NCBI GenBank assembly: GCA_964545575.1
Contig: CAZJFL010000002.1
Coordinates: 59,564-123,563, forward strand
DNA from: an uncultured Planctomycetales bacterium
Lineage (GTDB): Bacteria > Omnitrophota > Gorgyraeia > Gygaellales > Profunditerraquicolaceae
Direction: 5' to 3'
DNA length: 64,000 bases
Shown here: piece by piece, positions 12,699-60,453 of the stretch
Position numbering within the stretch: position 1 is the stretch's first letter
Layout: each line of letters begins with the position of its first letter
Position numbers and translations under genes: made by a program
Notes under the pieces: generated by a model
Databases searched by the model: none
Told to the model about the DNA's origin: nothing
What the model saw: the letters and a program-made list of their open reading frames with translations, nothing else

Positions 12699-14240
12699 TT
12701 ACTCCCATTCAATCGTTGCGGGCGGTTTTGAGGAGATATCGTAGACTACGCGATTTACGCCTTTGACTTCGTTAATCACGCGGTTAGCAATCTTCTCGAG
12801 GACTTCATAGGGGAGTTTTACCCAGTCGGCAGTCATGCCGTCGAGGCTGGAAACGCAGCGCAAGGCCGCCACATTTTCATAAGTACGTTCATCCCCCATC
12901 ACCCCCACACTTTTTATGGGCAGGAGTATGGCAAAAGATTGCCAGACCTGTTCGTAGAGCCCGGCGCCCCTGATTTCTTCGATCACGCGCTGATCTACTT
13001 CGCGCAGGATATTCAGGTATGGTTGTGTTACCTCTCCGATAATCCTGATCGCTAATCCCGGACCGGGAAACGGCTGGCGGCTGATGATCTGGTCCGGTAG
13101 GCCGAGCTCTCTGCCGATCTGGCGCACTTCGTCTTTGAATAATTCCCGTAAAGGTTCGACGAGTTTTAATTTCATCTGCGCCGGTAGGCCGCCTACATTA
13201 TGGTGGCTTTTGATGCGGCTGGAGGGCGCGCCGCTGGGAGAAAAAGATTCGATGACATCCGGATAAAGAGTCCCCTGCCCGAGGTATTTTACGCCTTTTA
13301 CTTTCTTGGCCTCTTCTTCAAATACCTTGATAAACTCTTCCCCGATAATTTTTCTCTTGTCTTCGGGGTCAGTGATGCCTTCCAGCCGGGTGAGGAATCG
13401 CTTGCTCCTGTCTACGTAATCCAGGTTTAAATGGAAATTATTACGGAAGACATTTTTTACCTGCTGCGGTTCATCTTTACGCAGCAGCCCGTTATCCACA
13501 AAGATGCACCTTAAGTTCCTGCCGATCGCTTTATGGATTAAGATTGCCGCGACCGAAGAATCAACCCCGCCGCTTAAGCCTAAGACCACCTTGTCGCGGC
13601 CGATAGTTTTTTTTAATCCGGCAATGGTTTCTTTGACAAAAGATTCCATGGTCCAGCGGCTGGTGCAGCCGCAGATTTTAAATAAAAAATTAGTTAAGAT
13701 CTGATTGCCTTTTTCCGTATGCGTTACTTCCGGATGGAATTGAACCGCATAAATCTTGCGCTGGCGGTTGCTGATCGCCATAATCGGGGTATTCAGCGTA
13801 TGGGCGGTGGTGCGAAAGCCGGGCGGAAGTTTGTTCACCAGGTCACCGTGGCTGGCCCAACAGGTAAAGTTACCCGGGATGTGGCCGAATAAATCGCGGT
13901 TATCGTCTAAAAATAACTCTACTTTGCCGTACTCGCGCTCTTTGGTGTGCTTGACTTTGCCGCCGAGCATTTCGGTGATTACCTGCATACCGTAACAGAT
14001 ACCCAAGACCGGTACGCCTAATTTAAATATGCCTTTATCGGGATACGGGCTTTTCTTTTCAGTTACCGATGCCGGCCCGCCGGAGAGAATTAACCCTTTG
14101 GGTGACATCGCGGCGATCTCTTTTGCCGGCATATTATAAGGTATGATTCTGGAGAACACTTTACTTACCCTGACGCGCCGGGCAATAAGCTGCGTATACT
14201 GCGAGCCGAAATCTAAAATAAGTATGGTTTGTCTGGTCAT
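12699..14240 (-). CDS. guaA: GMP synthase (glutamine-hydrolysing)
   Basis: 513 aa with a GATase1 domain, the ATP-PPase SGGVDSS motif and a C-terminal dimerisation domain ending in IEWE. Confidence 0.95.
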
Positions 14241-24026: not shown

Positions 24027-24036
24027 TTTTTTAAAA

Positions 24037-24433
24037 GGGGCAGGTAGAATAAGCCGAGTCTTGTCCGGAAACGATTATCCGTTGCCTGGTGATCATTCCT
24101 CTAAGTCCCCGATATTACCATCAGGGCTCAAGCAGCCTACCCGAGATTAGTGACGGGGCGGACAAGCCCCTCATCTCCTATTTGGCCTTGCTCGGCGTAG
24201 AGATTACCTCGTTTCACGTTGCCGCAAAAACGCAAAACGTCGGTAAAACGCAAAAATATTTTGCGCTTTTGCGTAAAAATTTTGCGTTTTTGCGGTTGCT
24301 CGTCTCTGTGGCTCTAAATCCTCTCCGGTTATGCGCCGGAGGGCGGGTATTACCCGCTACGCCTGTCCTCCTGAGCTCGGACTTTCCTCCCGCCATTGAT
24401 TCAGTGGCGGGCGACCACCTTCTACCTGCCCAG
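24037..24433 (-). ncRNA. rnpB: RNase P RNA (bacterial type A-like) with an expanded AT-rich P12-like helix
   Basis: The reverse strand contains GGAGGAAAGTCCGAGCTC and GGCCAAATAGG...GGGTAGGCTGCTTGAGCC...ACAAGACTCGGCTTAT. A P1 pairing of GGGCAGGTAGAA at the 5' end with TTCTACCTGCCC at the 3' end closes the molecule. Confidence 0.85.
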
Positions 24434-25571: not shown

Positions 25572-25662
25572 CCTTCTCCTTTTCCCGCTAGATTAGTGTA
25601 AGTATCGCCTGCGGGATCCCGCCCGCTAAGGCATAGCTTAGCGGGAATTTTCTGACATAAAA

Positions 25663-25736
25663 TGGGCGTAATAGGACTTGAACCTATGACCTCTACAATG
25701 TGAGTGTAGCGCTCTAACCAGCTGAGCTATACGCCC
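25663..25736 (-). tRNA. tRNA-Val (anticodon CAC)
   Basis: Manual cloverleaf fold: GGGCGTA acceptor, GCTC/GAGC D-stem, anticodon loop CTCACAT, T-loop TTCAAGT. CCA is not encoded. Confidence 0.85.
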
Positions 25737-25814: not shown

Positions 25815-25887
25815 TGGGCCCGCAGGGATTTGAACCCCGGACCAAGTGATTATGAGTCACCTGCTCTGACCACTGAGCTACGGGCCC
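25815..25887 (-). tRNA. tRNA with CAT anticodon (elongator Met or Ile2/lysidine)
   Basis: Manual fold: GGGCCCG acceptor, anticodon loop CTCATAA, T-loop TTCAAAT. No initiator signatures. Confidence 0.8.
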
Positions 25888-34581: not shown

Positions 34582-35463
34582 TTAGATGACCTCTAAGCTT
34601 AAATCTACCGACTCCAGGGAATGGGTTAATTCGCCGATAGAAATAATATCTACCCCGCAGGAGGCGATTTTACGCACACTCTTTAAATCTACGCCGCCGG
34701 AGGTTTCTAGTTTAGTCCGAGGGTGGTGGCTGTTAAAGACAGTGTTATTTCTGATTTTTACCGCTTTTTTAATCTCGGCTAGGTCCATATTATCCAGCAT
34801 AATCACATCGGGTTTAAACCTGAGGGCATGCCTGAACTCATCGAGATTCTGTACTTCTATCTCTATTTTAAACCCTTTGGGCACGCTGGGCAGCCGGTCA
34901 TAACCTGCGGTGACTTTAATATGATTGTCCTTAATCAGAATCATCTCGTCTAAACCCATACGGTGATTGTATCCCCCGCCGATTCTTACGGCGTATTTCT
35001 GCAGTTCGCGCAGGCCAGGCATAGTTTTTCTGGTGTCGGTGATTTTTGTCTTATAGGGCTCTATCTTTCTGACGTATTCGCGGGTCTTAGTAGCCACTCC
35101 CGACATCATCGATATAAGATTAAGCGCTACTCTTTCTGCGGTTAAGATACTCCTGGCTTTTCCGGAAAGTTCGGTGATGATCTTGCCTTTTTGGGCAGGC
35201 TTGCCGTCTTTACTTAAGGGTTTAAAAGAAATGTCCTTATCTACCGCCTTAAACACGGCTTCGGCAACCTCCAGGCCGCAAATTATACAGTCTTCTCTGA
35301 CTAAAATTACGGCCTTAATCTCTTTATCTTCGGGAATAGTGAGCCGGGTAGTGATATCTCCTTTGCCGATATCCTCGATCAGCGCCTTGCGCACGATTAC
35401 TTCCAGCCTTGATTTTTCTATATGGGGAGCCGCATCCGAGAGAAAATATTTATCTAAAGCCAT
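34582..35463 (-). CDS. nadC: Nicotinate-nucleotide pyrophosphorylase (carboxylating)
   Basis: 293 aa, type II PRTase family pattern. Confidence 0.9.
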   Translation of the reverse strand: MALDKYFLSDAAPHIEKSRLEVIVRKALIEDIGKGDITTRLTIPEDKEIKAVILVREDCIICGLEVAEAVFKAVDKDISFKPLSKDGKPAQKGKIITELSGKARSILTAERVALNLISMMSGVATKTREYVRKIEPYKTKITDTRKTMPGLRELQKYAVRIGGGYNHRMGLDEMILIKDNHIKVTAGYDRLPSVPKGFKIEIEVQNLDEFRHALRFKPDVIMLDNMDLAEIKKAVKIRNNTVFNSHHPRTKLETSGGVDLKSVRKIASCGVDIISIGELTHSLESVDLSLEVI

Positions 35464-38299
35464 CTCTTGCCGCCTTTACTTTTTTTAAAGCTTCTTTTAG
35501 CTCCTCTAGTTTAGAGCTTTCTTTTGCTACGATCTCTTCCGGCGCCTTCTTTACAAACTCCTTATTCGCCAAAGTTTTTTCTTTGGCTTTTATTTCTGCT
35601 TCTACTTTAGCGATCCTGTCTTCTAGCTTAGCCTTTTCTTTTTCTATATCGATAACACCTTCTAGGGGAAGAGTGATATGCATGTCTTTGACAATAGCGC
35701 TGATACTGGATTTTATATGGGTATATTTTTGTTCTATATCGAGGCGGCTTAACTTAGCCAGTTTTTTGATCTGGGCAGACAGCCCGGAAACCAGTTCTCT
35801 TGTTTCCTTTGCTGCGCTTGAAATGATGGCGTTTATTTCCTCGTCCTGCGGGATATCCAGCTCCTGGCGCATATTTCTTATAGTGGTGATTGTCTCTAAA
35901 ATCAAGCTCATCCTCTCTTCTAATTTCTTATCGATTATTTGCTCCTGGATGTGCGGCGAGGGCTGAATGCTGATGGATTTCCCTTGATGAGGAAGCGCCT
36001 GCCAGACCTCTTCGCTAATAAAGGGCATAAAAGGATGGATTGCGCGCAGGAACTTTTCCAGCACCTTGTACATGACTACTTGGATTTGCGGATTTTTAAT
36101 ATCTGATTTAATCATCTCCAGGTACCAGTCGCAGAACTCATGCCAGAAGAAGCCGTATAAAAGGTTTGCCGCTTCGTTAAAACGGTAAGCCGCCAAATTA
36201 TTATTTACTTGCTTAAGCGTAGAATAAAATCTGCTTAAAATCCAGCGGTTAACTAAGCCAAATCCTTTATAAGGGGCTGTCCCCGCAGAAGGCGGGGCAC
36301 CAAACCATTCCCGCAAAGGCGGGACACCGACGCATCCTTTAGCGTCGGGTGCAGGTTTGGGTGCCTCCGTAATACCAAGATTCATCAGGATAAACCGGGA
36401 GGCGTTCCAGATTTTGTTGGCAAAGTTCCTTCCCTGTTCAAATCTTTCTTTGGAAAGATGCACATCCTGGCCCTGGGCCGTGATTGCAATCAGGCTGAAA
36501 CGCAGAGCATCGGCGCCGTATTCATTAATAATGTCCAGCGGGTCAATGATATTGCCCAGCGACTTGGACATCTTTTTGCCTTCGATATCGCGCACTGTGC
36601 CGTGGATATAGACATCCTTAAAGGGTATCTCTTTCATGAATTCCAGGCCCGCCATGATCATGCGCGCCACCCAGAAGAAAATGATTTCCGGAGCAGTAAC
36701 CAGAACCGAGGTAGGGTAAAAATAAGCTAAATCTTTTTGCTTATCGCTTATCGCTAATCGCTTATCGTCTTGCACGATATGCGATATGCGATATGCGCTA
36801 TGCTCGAATGGCCAGTAAAAGACCGCAAACGGCCACAGCCAGGAAGAAAACCAGGTATCCAGCACGTCTTCGTCCTGATAGATATCAGTCGAGCCGCAAT
36901 GTGGACACTTGTCGGGTTTAATTCTGGAAACTATAACTCCCTCCTGCTTATCGCTTATCGCTAATCGCTTATTGGCCTTTTGCGATATGCGATATGCGAT
37001 ATGCGATATGCAGTTCTTACAATAATAAACCGGCAACCTGTGCCCCCACCAGATCTGGCGCGAGATGCACCATTCTTGAATATTCTCCATCCAGTCCAAA
37101 TATACCTTAGTCCAGCGCTGCGGATAGAATTTAATTTTACCCTTTTTAACTGCCTCTATCGCCGGTTTTGCCAGCGACTGCATCTTCACAAACCATTGTT
37201 TGGATAAATACGGCTCAATAATGGTGTGGCAACGGTAACAATGGCCTGCGGATAACGGATGAGGTTCGACTTTTTCTAGCAATCCTTTTTCCTTTAAATC
37301 CTCCAGAATTACTTCCCGCGCCTGGAATCTATCCATATCTTTATAATCACCGGCAAACTCATTCATGCGTCCGTCAGGATGCATCACGTTGATAAACTCC
37401 AGCTTATGTTTCTTTCCTAAAAGATAGTCATTAGGATCGTGCGCCGGAGTTACCTTAACCGCACCTGTGCCAAATTTCATATCCACCAGGCTATCGGCAA
37501 TGATTTTTATCTGCCGGTTGATCAATGGTAAAATCAGGATTTTACCGACGAGTTTTTTATAGCGTTTATCTTTGGGGTTGACCGCAACGGCTGTATCTCC
37601 GAGCATGGTTTCCGGACGTGTAGTCGCTACTACGACATGATCAGGGACAGTCCCCTTCAGGGACAGTCCCTGTGCTTCCTTTAGCGGATACCTCAAGTAA
37701 TATAAATTTCCCTGCAATTCGTGGTGTGGCGCCTCTTCGTCAGAAAGGGCAGTCTGGCAGCGCGGGCACCAGTTGATGATGTAGCTGCCTCTATAAATCA
37801 GGCCCTTCTCGTATAATCTGACAAAAACTTCAATCACAGCTTGAGAGTATTCTTCATCCATGGTAAAGCGCGTACGCGACCAGTCGCAGGAAACACCTAG
37901 CTTCTTTAACTGATGAATTATAGTTACACCGTATTGCTCCTTCCATTGCCAGACCCGCGCAATGAATTTTTCCCGGCCTAAGTCCTGACGCTTCAGTCCT
38001 TCTTTGGCGATCGCCTTTTCTACCACATTTTGCGTAGCGATTCCGGCGTGGTCAGTTCCCGGCATCCAGAGGGATTCTTCGCCTTGCATGCGGTGATAAC
38101 GGATAAGGATATCCTGAATAGTGTTATTCAGGGCGTGTCCCATATGCAGAATCCCGGTAACATTTGGCGGCGGGATGACTATAGAGAAAGGCTTTTTTGC
38201 AGGGTCTGCTTTTGCGGCAAAAAGATTATTCTCTTCCCAGAATTTGTACCACTTCTCTTCGGTTTCCTTAGGGCTATATCGAGTAGGTATTTCATTCAT
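35450..38299 (-). CDS. valS: Valine--tRNA ligase carrying two in-frame palindromic-repeat insertions
   Basis: 949 aa class I aaRS with HIGH (ILHMGHALN), WCISRQ, the zinc knuckle CKNC...CPHCGS and KMSKS. Two ~66 bp repeat copies encode the extra peptides ...SHIAYRISQKANKRLAISDKQEG... and ...HSAYRISHIVQDDKRLAISDKQKD... Confidence 0.95.
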   Translation of the reverse strand: MNEIPTRYSPKETEEKWYKFWEENNLFAAKADPAKKPFSIVIPPPNVTGILHMGHALNNTIQDILIRYHRMQGEESLWMPGTDHAGIATQNVVEKAIAKEGLKRQDLGREKFIARVWQWKEQYGVTIIHQLKKLGVSCDWSRTRFTMDEEYSQAVIEVFVRLYEKGLIYRGSYIINWCPRCQTALSDEEAPHHELQGNLYYLRYPLKEAQGLSLKGTVPDHVVVATTRPETMLGDTAVAVNPKDKRYKKLVGKILILPLINRQIKIIADSLVDMKFGTGAVKVTPAHDPNDYLLGKKHKLEFINVMHPDGRMNEFAGDYKDMDRFQAREVILEDLKEKGLLEKVEPHPLSAGHCYRCHTIIEPYLSKQWFVKMQSLAKPAIEAVKKGKIKFYPQRWTKVYLDWMENIQEWCISRQIWWGHRLPVYYCKNCISHIAYRISQKANKRLAISDKQEGVIVSRIKPDKCPHCGSTDIYQDEDVLDTWFSSWLWPFAVFYWPFEHSAYRISHIVQDDKRLAISDKQKDLAYFYPTSVLVTAPEIIFFWVARMIMAGLEFMKEIPFKDVYIHGTVRDIEGKKMSKSLGNIIDPLDIINEYGADALRFSLIAITAQGQDVHLSKERFEQGRNFANKIWNASRFILMNLGITEAPKPAPDAKGCVGVPPLREWFGAPPSAGTAPYKGFGLVNRWILSRFYSTLKQVNNNLAAYRFNEAANLLYGFFWHEFCDWYLEMIKSDIKNPQIQVVMYKVLEKFLRAIHPFMPFISEEVWQALPHQGKSISIQPSPHIQEQIIDKKLEERMSLILETITTIRNMRQELDIPQDEEINAIISSAAKETRELVSGLSAQIKKLAKLSRLDIEQKYTHIKSSISAIVKDMHITLPLEGVIDIEKEKAKLEDRIAKVEAEIKAKEKTLANKEFVKKAPEEIVAKESSKLEELKEALKKVKAARDGFR
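36740..36804. repeat. Family B palindromic element (CTTATCG)n-loop-(CGATATG)n, copy inside valS
   Basis: GCTTATCGCTTATCGCTAATCGCTTATCG-TCTTGCA-CGATATGCGATATGCGATATGCGCTATGC. In frame in valS. Confidence 0.9.
36948..37012. repeat. Family B palindromic element, second copy inside valS
   Basis: GCTTATCGCTTATCGCTAATCGCTTATTGGCCTTTTGCGATATGCGATATGCGATATGCGATATGC. In frame in valS. Confidence 0.9.
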
Positions 38300-54258: not shown

Positions 54259-56130
54259 TTAAGCGGGGTTCCCTTTTTCCAAACCGAGCATCCTCTTTAC
54301 TTCTTCGCCGCTTAAAACTTCCTTCTCCAGCAGCGCATCCGCCAGAATTTTTAATTTTTCCAGGTTTTCCTGGACCAGTTTCCTTGCCCGCTGGTAGCAC
54401 TCGTCAACCATGCGTTTTATTTCTTCGTCGATAATCCTGGCTGTTTCATCGCTGTAATTTCTTTCCTCAATCAGGTCGCGACCTAAAAACACCGGGCCGT
54501 GGCTCCTGCCTAAGGTGATATTGCCTAAACGCTCGCTCATCCCGAAATCACAGACCATCTGCCTGGCCAATGATGTCGCGGTTTCTAAGTCATGCCCTGC
54601 GCCGGTAGTAATATCGCCGAAGTTTAATTCTTCCGACACCCTCCCTCCCAGCAAGACCGAGATATTACCCAAGAGTTCTCTCTTGGCATGGTATTTTTTA
54701 TCTTCCCGCGGAGGAGTAAGGGTATAACCACCTGCCATGCCGCGGGGAATAATGGAAACTTTCGTCACCGGGTCAACCTCCGGAATTAATAATGAGAGTA
54801 TGGCGTGGCCCGCTTCATGGAATGCGGTTAATTCCTTTTCGCGCTTGGTCATGACCTTGCTTTTCTTCTCGGGGCCCATGATGACCCGTTCAATAGCCGC
54901 CTCCAGATCCGATTGTTCAACCGACTCTTTATTGCGCCGGGCAGCCAGAAGCGCGGCTTCGTTGCAGAGGTTTGCTAAATCGGCTCCGGAGAACATCGAG
55001 GTATGCTGGGCAATGATTTTTAAGTTGACGTCAGGGGCTAACTTTATTTTCCGGGTGTGCACTTTCAGTATCGCCTCCCGTCCGGTAATATCGGGAAGAT
55101 TAACCACAATCACCCGGTCAAATCTTCCGGGACGCAAAAGCGCCGGATCCAGTGTATCCGGCCGGTTAGTCGCGGCAATCAGAATCAGGCCCTGCTCGGT
55201 GCCAAACCCGTCCATCTCCACCAGCAGCTGATTCAGTGTCTGTTCACGTTCATCGTGCCCTCCGCCGATACCTGAAAAACGCAGGCGGCCGACGGCGTCT
55301 ATTTCGTCTATAAATATTATCGCACCCTTACCAGAAACTCTGGCGGCCTTGCGGCCCTGCTCAAATAAATCCCGCACGCGCGAGGCGCCGACACCAACGA
55401 ACATTTCCACAAAGTCAGAACCGGAAATGCTGAAAAAAGGAACCCCTGCCTCTCCGGCTACGGCCTTGGCAACCAAGGTCTTACCGCAGCCCGGAGGCCC
55501 GACTAAAAGCACGCCTTTGGGGATCTTCCCCCCGAGCCTTTGAAACCGCTTGGGGTCCTTTAAAAACTCAATTACTTCCTGTAGCTCTTCCTGGGCTTCG
55601 TCTACGCCGGCCACGTCTTGGTGGAAAGTAACTTTTTCCGCTTGCTTATCGCTGTGTATTTTAGGCTGTATCTTGCCGAACCCCATCACCTTGTTTCCTA
55701 ATTGCTCTCCGCGCGCAGCCATCATCCACCAGAAGAAGATTAAAAGTATAACCGGCCCTAAGTTAAATAACAGGTTCGCCCAGAGGGTGCGCGGCGGTTT
55801 AACCTCAAAGCTTTTTAAATTTTTGCGCATCAGGTTAAGCAATTCCTGGTCATTATCCGGGATATTCAAAAAGAACTTGGAATGGTCGATATACTCTCCC
55901 TGCAGGACAGTCTCGATTTTAGTGACGGATTGTATCTTATCGGGGGCGTCCTTAAGTGTCGAGTAAAACTCGCTGTAAGATATTTCTTTAGGGACGCCGG
56001 TTACGGATAGATTAAGCATGCTGAACAAAAAGTAAAAAATAATAATTGCGAATATCCATCCGAAAGGAAACCGCTTAAATATATTGTTTTTTTTCAGGTT
56101 AGGGTTATTTTTGCCGGGCATTTTTACCAT
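54259..56130 (-). CDS. ftsH: ATP-dependent zinc metalloprotease FtsH
   Basis: 623 aa with TM anchor, AAA+ domain (GPPGCGKT) and HEAGHA zinc protease motif. Confidence 0.95.
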
Positions 56131-56193
56131 CCTTTATTAGCTATTTTTAGAAATTTTATTATAGCTTTAAATAGTTATAAAATCAAGTGTTTC

Positions 56194-57165
56194 TTAGGGT
56201 TTCCTGCGATAAAAAGAGAGGCTATTTTTACGCTTTACTACCGAGATGCCTTTAGGCAGGTCTACTACGGAGTTTACCGGCCGGCCGGAAACCAGATCTT
56301 CTATTTCCCTGATATGCTGCAGGTTTATGGCGCGGGTATCCCCTTTTAAGCGCCTGATCGCCAGGCGTAAAATCATCCTTTGTATGGCAGGGTGCAATGC
56401 GGAGAATCTCTTCAAATTGATCTTACCCCCTCTGCCTCTTATGTTTCTGGCAGCGAGCTGATTCAGACAGGCATAATCCTGCCCTGCTGTTTCGGCCATA
56501 TTGGCTAAGACTTCTTTCATCTTTTTATTATATCCCTTCTCCAGAAAGGGGATTAATCTATTCCTGATTTTATTTCTGAAATATAAATCTTCTTTGTTGG
56601 AAGCATCCCGGCGCGGCGAAATCCTCTTTTTCTTCAAAAAGGCCTCGATCTGGCGGCGCCTTACTGCCAGCAACGGCCGGATAATTTGATAGCCGTAGAT
56701 ATCCCGCTTAGGCAGCATACCGGACAGGCCGTATAAGCCGGTCCCCCGCAAAATCCGCATCAGCACAGTTTCTGCCTGATCGTCCAGATTATGCCCCAGG
56801 GCAATTTTATCGGCCTTGATTTCCCGGGCGACCCTGAATAAGAAACTCAAGCGCGCATTGCGGGCTATCTCTTCCAGAGACCCGTATTTTACCAACGCCT
56901 TCAGGTTAACCTGCGCAGTGCTGACCGGCAACTTCAATCTTGCGGCTAAACTCTCTACAAAGGCCATATCCCCGAAGGAATCTTTCCTTAACATATGGTC
57001 AAGATGGGCAATGTGCAGCTTAAGCTTCCATTCTTTTTTCAAGCTGTTTAACAAATAAAGCAGGGCTAGGGAATCCGGGCCGCCTGAGACGCCGACAACG
57101 ACGCTCTCGCCCTTCTTAAGAAGCCGGTGTTTCTTAATATACTGGCTTACCTGCTGGAGGATCAT
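56194..57165 (-). CDS. tilS: tRNA(Ile)-lysidine synthetase
   Basis: 323 aa, PP-loop SGGPDS motif. Conserved tilS-ftsH linkage. Confidence 0.9.
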   Translation of the reverse strand: MILQQVSQYIKKHRLLKKGESVVVGVSGGPDSLALLYLLNSLKKEWKLKLHIAHLDHMLRKDSFGDMAFVESLAARLKLPVSTAQVNLKALVKYGSLEEIARNARLSFLFRVAREIKADKIALGHNLDDQAETVLMRILRGTGLYGLSGMLPKRDIYGYQIIRPLLAVRRRQIEAFLKKKRISPRRDASNKEDLYFRNKIRNRLIPFLEKGYNKKMKEVLANMAETAGQDYACLNQLAARNIRGRGGKINLKRFSALHPAIQRMILRLAIRRLKGDTRAINLQHIREIEDLVSGRPVNSVVDLPKGISVVKRKNSLSFYRRKP

Positions 57166-57191
57166 TCTATTTTTTGGCTTAAGCTGTTTTT

Positions 57192-57542
57192 TTACGGGAG
57201 AGTATGCGTGGCCTTATATATATCAACTTGCCTGCTGGTAAAGTTTGCCATCTCATCCTGTTGCCTTTTCAGGTCTTGCTGTTGTCTTCTAAAATCATCA
57301 AAATCTCTTTTTAAGTCCTGCTGCTGCCGGCTGATATCTTCCTGCTTTATCCGGAGCTCTTCATTTTGCCGGTTAAAATCTTGCCGCGGTATTAGAGGCG
57401 CTTGCTGTTGCCTGCTTAGCTCTCCTGCCTGAGGCTGCCACAGGGAATAGCCTTTTGGTTTTACGGTCTTAAAATAAAAGAGCAAAACAAATACTGCGAT
57501 AATAATCAGGTAATAGGTAATTACATATTTTTTTGTATCCAT
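57192..57542 (-). CDS. Membrane-anchored coiled-coil protein (possibly FtsB/DivIC-like)
   Basis: 116 aa with one N-terminal TM helix followed by a Q/R-rich coiled-coil. Position upstream of tilS-ftsH resembles divIC context in Firmicutes. Confidence 0.4.
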   Translation of the reverse strand: MDTKKYVITYYLIIIAVFVLLFYFKTVKPKGYSLWQPQAGELSRQQQAPLIPRQDFNRQNEELRIKQEDISRQQQDLKRDFDDFRRQQQDLKRQQDEMANFTSRQVDIYKATHTLP

Positions 57543-57767
57543 CTTGCGAAAATTTGGTGGCGACGAGTATGCACTCCTGAACTAGAATCACAGAGTGCCA
57601 CTCGCATGGGCAATTTTGCCGATTACTTAAAATGCAAGCGAAATTGGTGGCGGCGGGTGGATCCCCGCTATATCATCTTAGTTCCGCTAGCGGGGTCCCG
57701 CTCTCATTTTAAATCGCTTAGCGGGAAAACCACCTCGGTGGACGCTCCCACCCGATGCTAATAAAAA

Positions 57768-57841
57768 TGGCGGCGGGTGGATTTAAACCACCGACTTATC
57801 GGGTATGAGCCGACTACTCTATCGGGCTGAGTTACGCCGCC
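57768..57841 (-). tRNA. tRNA with CAT anticodon (Met or Ile2)
   Basis: Manual fold: GGCGGCG acceptor, anticodon loop CTCATAC, T-loop TTTAAAT. Followed downstream by partial duplicates of its 3' end. Confidence 0.75.
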
Positions 57842-57860
57842 ATTTCAAAATATTATAATA

Positions 57861-58649
57861 CTATCTTTTACGGTAGGCGTCAAGATAGGAATCGCAATAT
57901 ATTTGCTTATTCAGGATCAATTCTGCGGTAATCGCGGCATCCATCAATTGCGCATCTTTAGGGTCCAGTATCGCCGCATCTAATCCAAAGGTGATGGCCA
58001 TGGTCAGGAATGTGCGGTTAATGAGATTACGCACGCAGGCGCCCTGCGAAACATTGCTTAATCCGACGATGGTTTTGGGGCTGGGGTCGGAAATAATCTT
58101 AAACTCATGAATCACCTCTAAAATATCGCGCATCTGGGCCTGCGCGACATTAACCGGCATCACTATCGGGTCAAGGTAAAGGTCATCTATCGGAAATCCC
58201 TGATCCGAGCAGCAAGCTACGATTGTGGCGGCCAACTCCAGCCTCTGGTCCTTATTCTGCGGTATGCCTTTGGTGCTGATAGTGAGCCCGATTAGTTTAG
58301 CATGATATTTTTTGGCTAAAGGCACCAGCACTTCCAGTTTTTCCGGGTCGGCGGTGGTAGAATTGATGATGGCTTTATTTTTTATAACCTTTAATCCGGA
58401 TTCGATGACCTCGGGCTTGCTGGAATCTATGGCTAAAGGGCTATCTGTGACTTCCTGTATGGTTTGCGCCAACCACTGAATATCCGAGATCGGCTCGCGC
58501 GAAGCCGGGCCGCAATTGATATCCAAGGCATCTGCCCCGCATTTAATCTGCTCCATAGCGCATTTCTGGATAGTCACCTTATCTTTCTCTTTTATCGCCC
58601 TGCCGATATCTTTATACATCCCGTTAATTAGTTCACCAATAATAAACAT
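57861..58649 (-). CDS. acsE: Methyltetrahydrofolate:corrinoid/iron-sulfur protein Co-methyltransferase
   Basis: 262 aa pterin-binding TIM barrel. Closely parallels Moorella AcsE along its whole length (IIGE.INGM...ALD.N.GP...INST...DP...GLSNVSQ...NRTFL). Confidence 0.93.
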   Translation of the reverse strand: MFIIGELINGMYKDIGRAIKEKDKVTIQKCAMEQIKCGADALDINCGPASREPISDIQWLAQTIQEVTDSPLAIDSSKPEVIESGLKVIKNKAIINSTTADPEKLEVLVPLAKKYHAKLIGLTISTKGIPQNKDQRLELAATIVACCSDQGFPIDDLYLDPIVMPVNVAQAQMRDILEVIHEFKIISDPSPKTIVGLSNVSQGACVRNLINRTFLTMAITFGLDAAILDPKDAQLMDAAITAELILNKQIYCDSYLDAYRKR

Positions 58650-58665
58650 AAGTACACTCCTAATT

Positions 58666-58788
58666 TTAAACTCTAAACCCTAAACACTAAATCCTAAACA
58701 AATCCAAAACCCAAAATACAAAACGTTTTGAGTTTTTTAGTTTTGAATTTTGAGTTTGTTTAGAGTTTAGGATTTCGGATTTAGGATT
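58666..58788. repeat. Long imperfect palindrome (~60 nt arms) made of AAACCCTAAA / TTTAGG(G/A)TTT-like units, centred on AAAACGTTTT
   Basis: Intergenic between acsE and acsD. The left arm is rich in CTAAA(C/T)CC units and the right arm carries the mirror TTTAGGATTT units. Confidence 0.8.
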
Positions 58789-59716
58789 TATATAAATCTC
58801 CTATGTATTTGTTTACTTTTTCTATAGCCAAGGGATGCCGCATTACTAAAATATCCGCGCCGGCCTGAATTAAAGCCGTGGCAGTAATCACTTCCCACAT
58901 TATCCCCTGCTCTGCTTCTGCCTTAGCTTCTTTTGCCCGCCAGGATTCCTGCCCCGCAAAACAAATAAAAGGACTGGCTACGGTTTTATCACCGGCTAAG
59001 GCAGCTAAACGCGCCCGCTCCATAATCGAATAGGCGTATTCCAAACCGTAACCTAAAGCGCCGATGGTAGGATTAATCACGATCCGTTCCAGCGGCAGGC
59101 TCATATCGGAAATCAGAATATTCAGTTGTTTGGCAATATTTATGTCTATGGGCGACTCCGCGATAAGATTATGCCCGTCGGCTAACACTGCCGCCGCCAG
59201 AGTCTTATAATTATCCTGCGCGGCGCAACCGACAAGGCAACGCTCTCCTTTTGCCGCTTCGCAGACCGCCGGTAATACCAGATTGTCTTTTTCGTCATCG
59301 CCGCATCCGACGATGATCAAAGGCACTCCTACCTTTTTTAATAATTGCCTGACGAGATCCGCTTCTGCCTCAGGGGTCTTATTGCCGAAATCCGGATGCG
59401 CGCCTTGAAGCCTCAAACATAGAAGCCCTGTCCTATGCTTTTCTACGCACATTTGCGCCCAGGTAAGCGGGTCTTTTAAACTATCGCCGTAAGCGCCTGC
59501 CAATTCCTGCGGCCAATCACCAGGGATAACATCCCAGATTTCGGAAGCGATTACCGGCGGGTAAGGCAAATTGCCTTCGGCGAATAAAAACGGCAGGGCT
59601 CTCTGTCCCCCGACCCCGATGGTTCCCTGGCGGCTGCCGCCTTCGGCTTTCTGGGAGCCGATAGTCACTACTGCCACTTCCCCGGACCACTTTTCCATAA
59701 TCGATTCTAATGCCAT
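58781..59716 (-). CDS. acsD: Corrinoid iron-sulfur protein small subunit (CODH/ACS delta subunit)
   Basis: 311 aa. Aligns along its length with Moorella AcsD (GG..ALPF...VVGCGD.EKD..VL..V...NIIA.SP.DIN..KQLNIL...LP...IV.DP..G.LGYG.EY..SIMER.RL.AL.GDK). Confidence 0.93.
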   Translation of the reverse strand: MALESIMEKWSGEVAVVTIGSQKAEGGSRQGTIGVGGQRALPFLFAEGNLPYPPVIASEIWDVIPGDWPQELAGAYGDSLKDPLTWAQMCVEKHRTGLLCLRLQGAHPDFGNKTPEAEADLVRQLLKKVGVPLIIVGCGDDEKDNLVLPAVCEAAKGERCLVGCAAQDNYKTLAAAVLADGHNLIAESPIDINIAKQLNILISDMSLPLERIVINPTIGALGYGLEYAYSIMERARLAALAGDKTVASPFICFAGQESWRAKEAKAEAEQGIMWEVITATALIQAGADILVMRHPLAIEKVNKYIGDLYKS

Positions 59717-60453
59717 ATCTTTTCTCCTAATTTACGCAAGAGCTCTAAGCTTGGCGCGTTACCTTTTAGCTTAAGCAAAGAATTGCCGTTTAGGCTGATT
59801 TTGCTGATTTGCTTATCTTCAGGAATATGCCCGATATACTCCAGGTCTATTCCTTTTAGTTTTTCCTTTTCGATATCACAGGCGTAGCGGTTAACCAACA
59901 AAAGATTTTTCTTTGTCTTGATATCCAGCTCTTTGACTAAATCCCTGATTCTTTTTACCGCCCTCAGGCCTACCGGTGTCGCGTCGGAAACCGCCAATAA
60001 TACGTCCGCAGCGCGCGTAGTCCGGCGGGAAAGGTGCTCTAAACCAGCCTCATTATCAATAACGATATAGTCATAGTCGGTAATCAGCCGAGACATGACA
60101 TTACGCAACACATTATTGACGTAACAATAACAACCCGGGCCTTCCGGCTTACCCATGGTTAATAAATCAAACCCCTCTGCTTCCTCTATCGCCATCTGCA
60201 CCTGGTAATCAATAAACCTCTCCTTTGACATGCCTTCGGGCACACTCTCGGGATTAGCGGCAATGGCGTCGAGAATTGAGCCGATACTCTTTTTTACCTC
60301 TAGGCCTAAGGCCTCACCGAGGTTACTGTTCGGGTCGGCATCTATGGCTAAAACAGAGCCCTTTTTGTGCATCTTTAAGGCTCTGACCAAAAGCGCAGCC
60401 ACGGTAGTTTTACCTGTGCCGCCCTTGCCTGCGATTGCGATCACGTAGCCCAT
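59707..60453 (-). CDS. cooC: CODH/ACS nickel-insertion accessory ATPase CooC/AcsF
   Basis: 248 aa MinD/ParA-type ATPase with deviant Walker A AGKGGTGKTT. Confidence 0.88.
   Translation of the reverse strand: MGYVIAIAGKGGTGKTTVAALLVRALKMHKKGSVLAIDADPNSNLGEALGLEVKKSIGSILDAIAANPESVPEGMSKERFIDYQVQMAIEEAEGFDLLTMGKPEGPGCYCYVNNVLRNVMSRLITDYDYIVIDNEAGLEHLSRRTTRAADVLLAVSDATPVGLRAVKRIRDLVKELDIKTKKNLLLVNRYACDIEKEKLKGIDLEYIGHIPEDKQISKISLNGNSLLKLKGNAPSLELLRKLGEKIWH

What the first reader, a model, noticed from the sequence alone, without database searches (positions are those of the whole stretch)
57545..57841. tRNA with CAT anticodon followed by two degenerate direct repeats of its own 3' end (one with an encoded CCA)
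The tRNA at 57768-57841 ends in CCACCCGCCGCCA. The 15 nt ATCCACCCGCCGCCA recurs ~120 bp downstream (57645-57662), there followed by CCA. A further degenerate copy (CGTCGCCACCA plus a shared AATTTTCGC flank) lies at 57555-57570.

Direct repeats of a tRNA 3' end are the classic scars of integrase-mediated insertion and excision of genomic islands at tRNA genes. Here only ~100 bp segments remain between the repeats, and these contain conserved-looking CCCGCT...AGCGGG hairpins. A similar hairpin follows tRNA-Val at 25600-25650.

The region could instead encode a small structured RNA. I found no SRP, tmRNA or 6S motifs.
Basis: partly seen in the sequence, partly recalled or inferred. Interest (0 to 1): 0.5.

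Follow-up and report, generated by a model that had tools for sequence, protein, structure and literature searches.

The report
RtT-like pseudo-tRNA-end repeats after tRNA-Met
The stretch after a methionine tRNA gene in this Omnitrophota genome holds two conserved, folded RNA modules that each end in a copy of the tRNA's own tail, a design so far described only for the poorly understood RtT repeats behind the E. coli tyrosine tRNA genes.

Summary
tRNA-Met(CAU) occupies 57841..57768. Its last 15 nt recur exactly at 57662..57648, followed by CCA. A diverged third copy (CGUCGCCACCA) lies at 57565..57555.

The copies are not bare scars. Each is the 3' strand of the closing helix of a structured module:
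- Type A, 57736..57645: a T-arm-like helix whose loop holds two hairpins.
- C+B, 57647..57550: two hairpins.
- Both leave a single-stranded ...CGCC-A-CCA tail.

Covariance models of both modules hit only tRNA-Met trailers in 81 Omnitrophota loci. Both show strong compensatory covariation. Half of 62 orthologous loci carry at least one pseudo-end, often in tandem arrays.

I found no recombinase in the sampled cargo ORFs, and no polymorphism among five assemblies of this species. No Rfam family matches.

The architecture equals that of E. coli RtT RNA (RF00391, the tyrT 178-bp repeats), without sequence homology.

Best reading: RtT-like trailer modules generated by unequal recombination and probably processed at the pseudo-ends. 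Integrase scars are a weaker rival. Function is unknown.

The parts
57855..57883 (-). Sigma-70-like promoter TTGACG-17-TATTAT just upstream of the tRNA
   Evidence: Consensus scan, 10 of 12 matches. A match to the consensus only; no expression data.
57768..57841 (-). tRNA(CAU), probably elongator tRNA-Met. It has a G1-C72 pair, an unusual T-loop UUUAAAU paired with D-loop ...CGAUA, and no encoded CCA.
   Evidence: ARAGORN; Rfam RF00005 61.8 bits. It is found in 62 of the 81 tilS loci (80 fetched loci plus the window), always upstream of tilS on the same strand. The other CAT tRNA, at 25815-25887, is the tRNA-Ile2 type.
57768..57782 (-). True 3' end of the tRNA (AUCCACCCGCCGCCA), reference copy of the repeat
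   Evidence: family D4.
57737..57766 (-). U-rich spacer with a small hairpin GGGUGG..CCACC (57753..57737). Its 5' arm is complementary to the T-stem 3' strand.
   Evidence: -7.1 kcal/mol, z = -1.35, not significant; coordinates.
57645..57736 (-). Type A module. T-stem 5' strand GGUGG (57734..57730), then UUUU, hairpin P1 (57725..57697), hairpin P2 (57695..57663), AU, T-stem 3' strand CCACC (57660..57656), CGCCGCC-A (57655..57648) and CCA (57647..57645).
   Evidence: Model R2 scores 45.9 bits, E 6.6e-8. 13 homologues, all in tRNA-Met trailers. Covariation: 89% of cells paired, 11 of 17 pairs changed on both sides, 0 of 500 shuffles reach this. Coordinates. The MFE fold keeps the closing helix.
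57648..57662 (-). Second copy of the tRNA 3' end, 15 of 15 identical, followed by CCA at 57647..57645
57550..57647 (-). C+B module. Hairpin C (57646..57611) starts in the CA of the preceding CCA. Hairpin B (57605..57563) has outer helix GCGAGU:ACUCGU and inner helix GCACUC:GAGUGC. The single-stranded tail CGCCACCA lies at 57562..57555. The flank AAUUUUCGC lies at 57554..57546.
   Evidence: Model R1 scores 87.6 bits. Covariation: 97.5% of cells paired, 11 of 21 pairs changed on both sides, 0 of 500 shuffles; slid controls give about 40%. Fold z = -2.97. Coordinates.
57555..57565 (-). Third, diverged copy of the tRNA 3' end (CGUCGCCACCA). The diverged upstream part ACUCGU (57568..57563) pairs 6 of 6 with GCGAGU (57605..57600).
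54259..57542 (-). Downstream co-directional genes: a 116-aa membrane/coiled-coil ORF (57542..57192), tilS (57165..56194) and ftsH (56130..54259)
   Evidence: Pfam families on record for identical genes: PF01171/PF09179 for tilS; PF00004/PF01434 for ftsH.
25575..25650 (-). Paralogous two-hairpin module (CCCGCUAAG..CUUAGCGGG and UCCCGC..GCGGGA) in the trailer of tRNA-Val, with no pseudo-3' end

Best explanation
The 225 nt between tRNA-Met(CAU) and the next ORF form the structured 3' trailer of the tRNA transcription unit. The trailer is made of two modules built like E. coli RtT RNA.

Anatomy (shown). Each module is a cluster of G+C-rich hairpins. Each is closed by a helix whose 3' strand is the first part of a duplicated tRNA 3' end (T-stem 3' strand and start of the acceptor strand). 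The rest of the duplicate (...CGCC-A-CCA) stays single-stranded and is followed by the same AU-rich sequence that follows a real tRNA end.

Origin (inferred). The modules arise and change copy number by unequal recombination or slippage between the repeated 3' ends. The duplicated unit is 'tRNA tail + trailer hairpin'.

Function (inferred). Each pseudo-end shows the 3'-maturation machinery the same local context as the real tRNA end: a helix, then NCCA, then an AU-rich trailer. The primary transcript is therefore probably cut and trimmed at each pseudo-end. That would release stable trailer RNAs of about 90-120 nt with CCA ends, as happens for rtT RNA. It would also separate the strong tRNA promoter from the downstream ORF-tilS-ftsH genes. 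What the released RNAs do is unknown.
For: 1. The repeats are real and specific. There are two exact 15-mers in 64 kb. The strict tail pattern gives 97 hits in 81 loci; all but two chance-like hits (plus five at the starts of three contigs that begin inside the tRNA or its trailer) lie in the tRNA or within 400 nt downstream.
2. They are recurrent. 44 pseudo-ends occur in 31 of 62 orthologous loci.
3. The modules are conserved families found only in this trailer. R1 and R2 hit only tRNA-Met trailers in 655 kb. R2 also hits the resident T-arms at about 22 bits, which fits 'a T-arm with an insertion'.
4. Structure is under constraint. Pairing is 97.5% and 89%; 11 of 21 and 11 of 17 pairs change on both sides; 0 of 500 shuffles reach this; slid controls give about 40%. 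G-U exceeds A-C by 22 to 7 on the tRNA strand (biased by model fitting).
5. The window's third copy has diverged from the tRNA in its paired part, yet it still pairs 6 of 6 with its partner and keeps CGCCACCA.
6. The arrays are dynamic. L064 has 48 nt x3, L036 81 nt x3, L079 93 nt x3. L065 has a duplicate including the whole tRNA. Contigs break here.
7. There is a direct precedent. In E. coli K-12 the 19-mer AATCCTTCCCCCACCACCA occurs six times at tyrT-tyrV. The annotated sRNA RttR ends exactly at a pseudo-CCA. The consensus of Rfam RF00391 has the closing helix GGGAAGGAU:AUCCUUCCC and an unpaired tail ccaCCACCA.
8. The tRNA has its own promoter-like site.
Against: - There are no expression or 3'-end data, so processing at the pseudo-ends is inferred only from the RtT analogy.
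- Both covariation alignments were fitted to the models. Part of the T-helix covariation merely mirrors tRNA alleles.
- The last hairpin of several arrays lacks a pseudo-end (L014 second unit, L064 third, L065 fourth), and the sole B hairpin of L009 has a decayed tail, so the tail may be dispensable. It could simply be the start of the next duplicated unit.
- 26 of 44 copies differ from the resident tRNA allele. Plain local duplication does not predict this.
- In the window, hairpin C is weak (one mismatch; not in the MFE).
- There is no sequence homology to RF00391.
Confidence: 0.55

Rival explanations
1. Integration scars. Tyrosine-integrase elements repeatedly integrated into the 3' half of this tRNA. 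Each brought a replacement 3' end and pushed the old one downstream. Later deletions removed the elements and left about 100-nt remnants between attL- and attR-like repeats.
For: - tRNA 3'-end direct repeats are the known signature of such events (PMC9897764).
- Copies often carry a different allele from the resident tRNA (26 of 44).
- L001 has a plain displaced 3' half that starts in the anticodon stem-loop and carries another allele.
- In the window the most distal copy is the most diverged.
- Gene content between tRNA and tilS varies (10 to 3,700 nt).
Against: - No recombinase appeared among the cargo ORFs examined (10 read by eye and 10 run through Pfam, one ORF in both sets, out of 41 clusters).
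- No tail copy lies at the far end of any cargo.
- The species shows no polymorphism.
- The 5' limits of homology vary and coincide with hairpin feet.
- The segments between repeats are conserved with covariation across species whose TilS is only 51-67% identical.
- When alleles differ, the resident 5' acceptor strand and T-stem 5' strand match the new allele. That requires replacement of the whole gene, not of the 3' half.
- Two scans of viral contigs gave only a probable chance hit.
Confidence: 0.15
2. Neutral by-product. The hairpins are ordinary terminator or stability structures of the tRNA transcript. The pseudo-ends are only junctions of tandem duplications of 'tail + hairpin', produced by slippage or unequal crossing-over, and have no role of their own.
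For: - Arrays are exact tandem repeats whose unit starts inside the tRNA tail and runs past the CCA (L064, L036, L079, L067).
- Terminal hairpins lack the tail.
- All loci have strong hairpins after the tRNA, including those without copies.
- The tail has decayed in L009 while the hairpins persist.
Against: - The outer helix of B uses the tail and covaries with it: GAGAGU:ACUCUC, GCGACU:AGUCGC, GCGAGU:ACUCGU.
- In the window the paired part of copy 3 has co-evolved with its partner while CGCCACCA is intact.
- Pseudo-ends keep CCA where the resident gene has lost it (window, L012, L034, L051).
- No U-tract follows the hairpins, so they are not classical intrinsic terminators.
- The same design evolved independently at E. 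coli tyrT, where a discrete RNA is made.
Confidence: 0.25
3. Alternative pre-tRNA folding switch. The pseudo-ends compete with the true 3' strand for the tRNA's 5' acceptor strand (GGCGGCG). This would give a misfolded or regulated precursor.
For: The MFE of the whole 318-nt transcript pairs the tRNA 5' strand with the second copy (z = -4.9).
Against: - In many loci the copy's allele would mismatch the resident 5' strand (L028, L066).
- Each module has its own internal pairing partner.
- Co-transcriptional folding favours the canonical cloverleaf.
Confidence: 0.05

Closest known systems
RtT RNA (Rfam RF00391; rttR, the 178-bp repeats of the E. coli tyrT-tyrV operon)
   Same: - It lies in the trailer and spacer of a tRNA operon, on the tRNA strand.
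- Each unit ends in an exact copy of the tRNA's last 15-19 nt, starting in the 3' part of the T-loop and including CCA.
- An upstream strand pairs with the T-stem 3' strand and the start of the acceptor 3' strand of that copy. This helix encloses G+C-rich hairpins and leaves an 8-9-nt single-stranded tail ending in CCA.
- Units are tandemly repeated and can be interleaved with whole tRNA copies.
   Different: - There is no sequence or covariance-model similarity (no RF00391 hit at E<=10).
- The tRNA differs (Met, not Tyr) and so does the phylum (Omnitrophota, not Enterobacteria).
- The units are shorter (about 50-125 nt, not 178) and belong to at least three structural types (A, B, C).
- No Tpr-like ORF was looked for or found.
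- Release of a discrete RNA is documented for rtT (annotation; bioRxiv 10.1101/2024.07.17.603846) but is untested here.
tRNA gene fragments left by integrative elements (attL/attR repeats)
   Same: Direct repeats of the 3' part of a tRNA gene lie downstream of the intact gene, sometimes with a different allele.
   Different: Known cases bracket kilobases of mobile DNA with an integrase (PMC9897764). Here the repeats bracket 24-200 nt of conserved structured RNA. I found no integrase, and the homology limits vary.
3'ETS-derived small RNAs of tRNA operons (such as 3'ETS-leuZ)
   Same: A functional RNA cut out of the trailer of a tRNA transcript. This comparison rests on my own knowledge; relevant papers were listed but not read.
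   Different: Those RNAs carry no copy of the tRNA 3' end. They act by base-pairing as Hfq-bound sponges, and nothing here tests that.

Membership tests
RtT RNA (RF00391) | Match to the Rfam covariance model at or above gathering score | tested here: not met
   No RF00391 hit in window 57300-58000 at E<=10, nor at E<=1 in seven related loci. The same search finds four copies in E. coli at 133-137 bits.
RtT RNA (RF00391) | Lies in the trailer or spacer of a tRNA operon, on the same strand as the tRNA | tested here: met
RtT RNA (RF00391) | Unit ends with a copy of the tRNA 3' end from the T-loop 3' part through CCA | tested here: met
   57662..57645 (18 nt including CCA) and 57565..57555. E. coli reference.
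RtT RNA (RF00391) | Closing helix between an upstream strand and the T-stem/acceptor part of the pseudo-end; 3' tail ending in CCA left unpaired | tested here: met
   Structures of R1 and R2 with covariation, compared with the RF00391 consensus line.
RtT RNA (RF00391) | Tandem repetition of the unit | tested here: met
   The window has two different modules in series. Homologous tandem arrays occur in L064, L036, L079, L051 and L065.
RtT RNA (RF00391) | Released as a discrete RNA from the tRNA primary transcript | not testable with these tools
   No transcript data available.
Integrase att scars at tRNA genes | Integrase or other mobile-element genes between or beside the repeats in at least some genomes | tested here: not met
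   No recombinase domain among the cargo ORFs examined: ten read by eye and ten run through Pfam, one ORF in both sets, out of 41 clusters. Upstream regions of loci without a tRNA were listed but not Pfam-tested.
Integrase att scars at tRNA genes | Repeats bracket the inserted DNA, with one copy at its far end | tested here: not met
   All copies lie within 400 nt of the tRNA; none lies next to tilS.
Integrase att scars at tRNA genes | Presence/absence polymorphism among close relatives | tested here: not met
   Five assemblies from different samples are identical over 358 nt; one covers only 142 nt.
Integrase att scars at tRNA genes | Homology to the tRNA starts at one fixed crossover position (anticodon loop or T-loop) | tested here: inconclusive
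   Limits are near positions 33 (L001, L079), 57 (type A) and 61-63 (type B). Different integrase families could explain this.
Intrinsic (Rho-independent) terminator | G+C-rich hairpin immediately followed by a U-tract | tested here: not met
   The scan finds no such site on the minus strand in 57100-57950. The tails after the hairpins are C-rich.
Dispersed palindromic repeats (REP/MITE-like) | Many copies scattered through intergenic regions of the genome | tested here: not met
   R1 and R2 hit nothing outside tRNA-Met trailers in the 64-kb window or the 80 loci. CCCGC..GCGGG hairpins lie at only a few sites; one further pair follows tRNA-Val.
Decayed tandem copy of the tRNA gene | Residual similarity of the module body to the tRNA body | tested here: not met
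   Semi-global alignment scores equal those of shuffles (z about 0) for L014, L027 and the window.

The most novel reading that the evidence does not exclude
The released modules could be true mimics of the tRNA-Met acceptor end. They would be stable hairpin RNAs that expose the same ...CGCC-A-CCA tail as uncharged tRNA-Met. They would act in trans on factors that read free CCA ends, for example as decoys in the sensing of uncharged tRNA. That would fit the old, unexplained link between E. coli rtT RNA and the stringent response. It would also define a general, convergently evolved class of tRNA-trailer 'acceptor-mimic' RNAs.
Probability: 0.1. Interest if true: 0.8.

Novelty: new variant of a known kind. 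Interest (0 to 1): 0.45.

Why it matters
RtT has stood as an isolated enterobacterial curiosity of unknown mechanism since 1978-1991.

The same design now appears behind a different tRNA in an uncultivated phylum. The design is a pseudo-tRNA 3' end that serves as the closing strand of a hairpin module, with a free CCA tail, repeated in tandem. It has no sequence homology to RtT, and it shows covariation across dozens of species. This suggests a general, convergent solution rather than an accident of one locus.

It supplies two new covariance-modelled RNA families on which the processing and function hypotheses can be tested.

It also warns annotators that short tRNA 3'-end repeats are not automatically integration scars. 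The repeats break MAG assemblies as well.

Tried and rejected
- Known RNA family. Rfam gave only the tRNA at gathering score and at E<=10 on the region. The trailers of seven related loci gave nothing either. ARAGORN found no tmRNA.
- tRNA-Ile2/tilS link. I suspected that the CAT tRNA upstream of tilS was the TilS substrate and that the copies were regulatory mimics. The other CAT tRNA (25815-25887) is the one that matches E. coli tRNA-Ile(CAT) at 84-87%. The tRNA-to-tilS distance ranges from 10 to 3,700 nt with unrelated cargo. I dropped the idea.
- Genomic island. Cargo ORFs were clustered, and ten were run through Pfam. They include a Wzx-like flippase, an SLT domain, a methyltransferase, a phosphatase and a hydrolase, but no recombinase.
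- Phage attP. The first 20-mer scan of viral contigs gave 0 hits. The second gave five contigs of one large phage with an isolated 20-mer. The ORFs tested in the held stretch of that contig (about 13.6 kb; match at 12733..12752) include a reverse transcriptase 10-11 kb away, ThiF 9 kb away and SPFH 2-3 kb away, but no integrase. The hit is compatible with chance.
- Decayed second tRNA gene. There is no residual similarity.
- Metagenome scan with a B-hairpin pattern. 
- Phylogenetic mapping. On a quick TilS NJ tree the modules and the tRNA alleles are scattered, so I could not separate ancient origin with losses from mobility.
- Tail conservation. I cannot claim it, because the search pattern fixed positions 68-73.

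Full report
OBSERVATION

Everything of interest is on the minus strand.
- ARAGORN and Rfam place a tRNA with anticodon CAT at 57841..57768 (61.8 bits).
- The tRNA ends ...AUCCACCCGCCGCCA and is followed directly by UUUUUAUU, so CCA is not encoded.
- The 15-mer ATCCACCCGCCGCCA occurs exactly twice in the 64-kb window, at 57782..57768 and at 57662..57648. The second copy is followed by CCA.
- A third, diverged copy (CGUCGCCACCA, 57565..57555) is followed by AAUUUUCGC. The second copy is followed by AUUUCGC.
- Of the seven tRNAs in the window, only this one has downstream copies of its tail. Only tRNA-Pro encodes CCA.
- A promoter-like TTGACG-17-TATTAT lies just upstream, at 57883..57855.
- Downstream on the same strand lie a 116-aa ORF, tilS and ftsH.

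COMPARATIVE CONTEXT

A search with the TilS protein returned 80 loci, nearly all from Candidatus Omnitrophota MAGs.
- Counting the window as an 81st locus, 62 of the 81 have the same tRNA(CAU) upstream of tilS on the same strand.
- The tRNA-to-tilS distance ranges from 10 to 3,700 nt.
- The genes in between are ordinary and variable: a Wzx-like flippase on the opposite strand, GGDEF/HD-GYP, a PilT-like ATPase, small lipoproteins, a methyltransferase and a phosphatase. No recombinase appeared in what I sampled.
- A strict pattern for the tRNA tail gives 97 hits in the 81 loci. All lie in the tRNA or within 400 nt downstream, apart from two chance-like hits and five at the starts of three contigs (L018, L036, L069) that begin inside the tRNA or its trailer.
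- 44 pseudo-ends occur in 31 of 62 loci.
- Several contigs start inside the repeats or carry 100-N gaps there.
- Five independent assemblies of the window's own species are identical over the whole region.

WHAT THE SEGMENTS BETWEEN THE REPEATS ARE

Reading all the units showed recurrent module types.

Type A (window 57736..57645) is a T-arm with an expanded loop. Its parts, in order, are:
- a T-stem 5' strand,
- UUUU,
- hairpin P1 (CCCGC..GCGGG),
- AYU,
- hairpin P2,
- (U)GAAAU or AAAAU,
- the T-stem 3' strand,
- the acceptor 3' strand, A, and usually CCA.

Type C+B (window 57647..57550) has two hairpins.
- Hairpin C begins in the CA of the preceding CCA (CAAUUUUGC..GCAAAAUUG).
- Hairpin B has an outer helix that pairs an upstream strand with tRNA-like positions 63-68. 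Examples are GAGAGU:ACUCUC, GCGACU:AGUCGC and, in the window, GCGAGU:ACUCGU.
- The inner helix of B is G+C-rich, often with a GAA loop.
- CGCCACCA is left unpaired.

COVARIANCE MODELS

I built one model for each type. The seed of R1 (C+B, alignment A3) was the window's own copy plus L009, L014, L027 and L043, so the window's R1 score is partly by construction.
- R1 (C+B) scores 87.6 bits on the window. In 655 kb it hits only tRNA-Met trailers.
- R2 (type A) scores 45.9 bits on the window (E 6.6e-8). It has 13 good hits, all in tRNA-Met trailers. It also hits every resident T-arm at about 22 bits, as expected for 'a T-arm with an insertion'.

Pair counts:

| Module | Cells paired | Pairs changed on both sides | Shuffles reaching this | Slid controls (cells paired) |
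|---|---|---|---|---|
| C+B | 97.5% | 11 of 21 | 0 of 500 | 37-50% |
| Type A | 89% | 11 of 17 | 0 of 500 | 28-50% |

Both alignments were fitted to the models, which inflates these figures. The five C+B seeds and five type A seeds, however, were aligned by MAFFT alone.

G-U pairs outnumber A-C by 22 to 7 on the tRNA strand. This fits an RNA-level constraint, with the same caveat.

In the window, the third copy has diverged from the tRNA in its paired part (ACUCGU against ACCCGC). It still pairs 6 of 6 with its partner and keeps CGCCACCA intact.

No Rfam family matches the trailers here or in seven other loci. The body of C+B shows no residual similarity to the tRNA body.

DYNAMICS
- Exact tandem arrays occur in L064 (48 nt x3), L036 (81 nt x3), L079 (93 nt x3) and L051.
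- L065 repeats the whole tRNA together with its module.
- The repeated unit usually runs a few to 17 nt past the CCA.
- The last hairpin of an array often lacks a tail.

These features point to unequal recombination or slippage between the repeated tails as the process that changes copy number.

Against simple local duplication, 26 of 44 copies differ from the resident allele over positions 61-73. L001 carries a plain displaced 3' half of another allele. When alleles differ, the resident tRNA's own 5' strands match its own 3' strand. So the whole gene differs from the copies, not just its 3' half. On a quick TilS tree both the modules and the tRNA alleles are scattered.

THE CLOSEST KNOWN THING

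I recalled the 178-bp repeats behind E. coli tyrT and checked them with the tools.
- In K-12 the 19-mer AATCCTTCCCCCACCACCA (T-loop 3' part through CCA) occurs six times. Two are the ends of tyrT and tyrV. One lies in the spacer. Three lie downstream at 178-nt spacing.
- The annotated small RNA RttR ends exactly at a pseudo-CCA.
- Rfam RF00391 (RtT) hits four units at 133-137 bits.
- The RF00391 consensus has a closing helix GGGAAGGAU:AUCCUUCCC. It is formed by a T-stem-5'-like strand and the tRNA-derived copy. It encloses G+C-rich hairpins and leaves ccaCCACCA unpaired.

This is the architecture of type A and type B here. There is no sequence or model similarity, the tRNA is different and the phylum is very distant.

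A recent preprint describes rtT RNA as involved in tyrT transcript processing and probably in modulating the stringent response, with its mode of action still unknown (bioRxiv 10.1101/2024.07.17.603846). The original descriptions (Egan and Landy 1978; Boesl and Kersten 1991) I cite from memory only.

INTERPRETATION

Best supported (about 0.55). This is an RtT-like structured trailer of the tRNA-Met unit.
- Shown: the repeats, the module anatomy, their restriction to this trailer, their conservation with covariation, the copy-number dynamics, and the structural parallel with RtT.
- Inferred: the pseudo-ends are recognised by the tRNA 3'-maturation machinery, so that CCA-ended trailer RNAs are released and the downstream genes are insulated from the tRNA promoter. 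Unequal recombination is the inferred generator.

Rivals.
- Neutral duplication junctions around ordinary trailer hairpins (0.25). Tails missing at array ends and in L009 support this. Covariation of the tail-containing helix opposes it. So does the retention of CCA where the resident gene lacks it (window, L012, L034, L051).
Allele differences and L001 support it. The absence of integrases, distal repeats, polymorphism and a fixed crossover point opposes it. So does the conservation of the segments between the repeats. Known scars bracket kilobases of mobile DNA (PMC9897764).
- A competing fold with the tRNA 5' strand (0.05).

IDENTITY OF THE tRNA

The CAT tRNA at 25815-25887 matches E. coli tRNA-Ile(CAT) at 84-87% in all 5,426 genomes. 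The one studied here has no good E. coli match. It has a G1-C72 pair and a Y11-R24 pair, so it is most likely the elongator tRNA-Met. My early idea of a tilS-related mimic was dropped.

VERDICT

The element is a new, non-homologous variant of a known but poorly understood kind, the RtT-type tRNA-trailer repeat. Interest is moderate.

Noticed in passing
window 57768-57841 and the orthologous tRNAs in L001-L080: The tRNA-Met shows a clean tertiary-pair covariation across species. Genes with T-loop UUUAAAU (U56) have D-loop ...YGAUA (A19). Genes with UUCAAAU or UUCGAAU (C56) have ...UGGYA (G19). In effect G19-C56 is replaced by A19-U56.
   Followed up: partly
window 54259-57842 (minus strand) and the 80 related loci: The order tRNA-Met(CAU) -> (variable cargo) -> tilS -> ftsH is conserved across Omnitrophota, although this tRNA is probably not the TilS substrate.
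   Followed up: partly
window 25815-25887 and 25663-25736 (minus strand): A tRNA-Ile2-type CAT tRNA (84-87% identical to E. coli tRNA-Ile(CAT)) sits next to tRNA-Val. The tRNA-Val trailer carries a two-hairpin module like P1-P2 of type A but has no pseudo-3' end, and it runs straight into a Shine-Dalgarno sequence and start codon.
   Followed up: partly
window 24036-24429 (minus strand): Bacterial RNase P RNA, class A (167 bits).
   Followed up: no
window 57861-60453 (minus strand): Upstream of the tRNA lie apparent Wood-Ljungdahl genes. The 262-aa ORF has Pterin_bind/CdhD hits on record. A CFeSP-like ORF and a CooC-like P-loop ORF follow; I named those two by eye only.
   Followed up: no
L086-L090 (IMG/VR contigs of 77-150 kb): One large phage carries an isolated 20-mer identical to T-loop-through-discriminator of the Omnitrophota tRNA-Met. 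The 20-mer lies between the phage's own tRNA-Met and a tmRNA gene. A reverse transcriptase gene lies 10-11 kb away in the same held stretch. No integrase was seen, and a chance match is plausible.
   Followed up: partly
L065 about 2360-2460, L079 about 690-790, L036, L070: Runs of about 100 N sit exactly in the repeat arrays, and contigs L018, L036 and L069 start inside them. These repeats break or gap MAG assemblies.
   Followed up: no
window 36282-36323: Two adjacent CCCGC..GCGGG-type hairpins lie inside a 949-aa ORF (35450..38299, minus strand). They may be coincidental coding sequence.
   Followed up: no
L027 about 505-518 and L048: Some pseudo-ends are followed by a second or third CCA (CGCCACCACCACA). 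This recalls CCACCA tagging, but it may be chance.
   Followed up: no
L002, L010, L019, L023 (tRNA to tilS 44-92 nt): Where tilS follows the tRNA closely, the short spacer is filled by one very stable perfect hairpin (down to -51 kcal/mol) without a U-tract. A strong hairpin after this tRNA appears in most of the loci folded.
   Followed up: no
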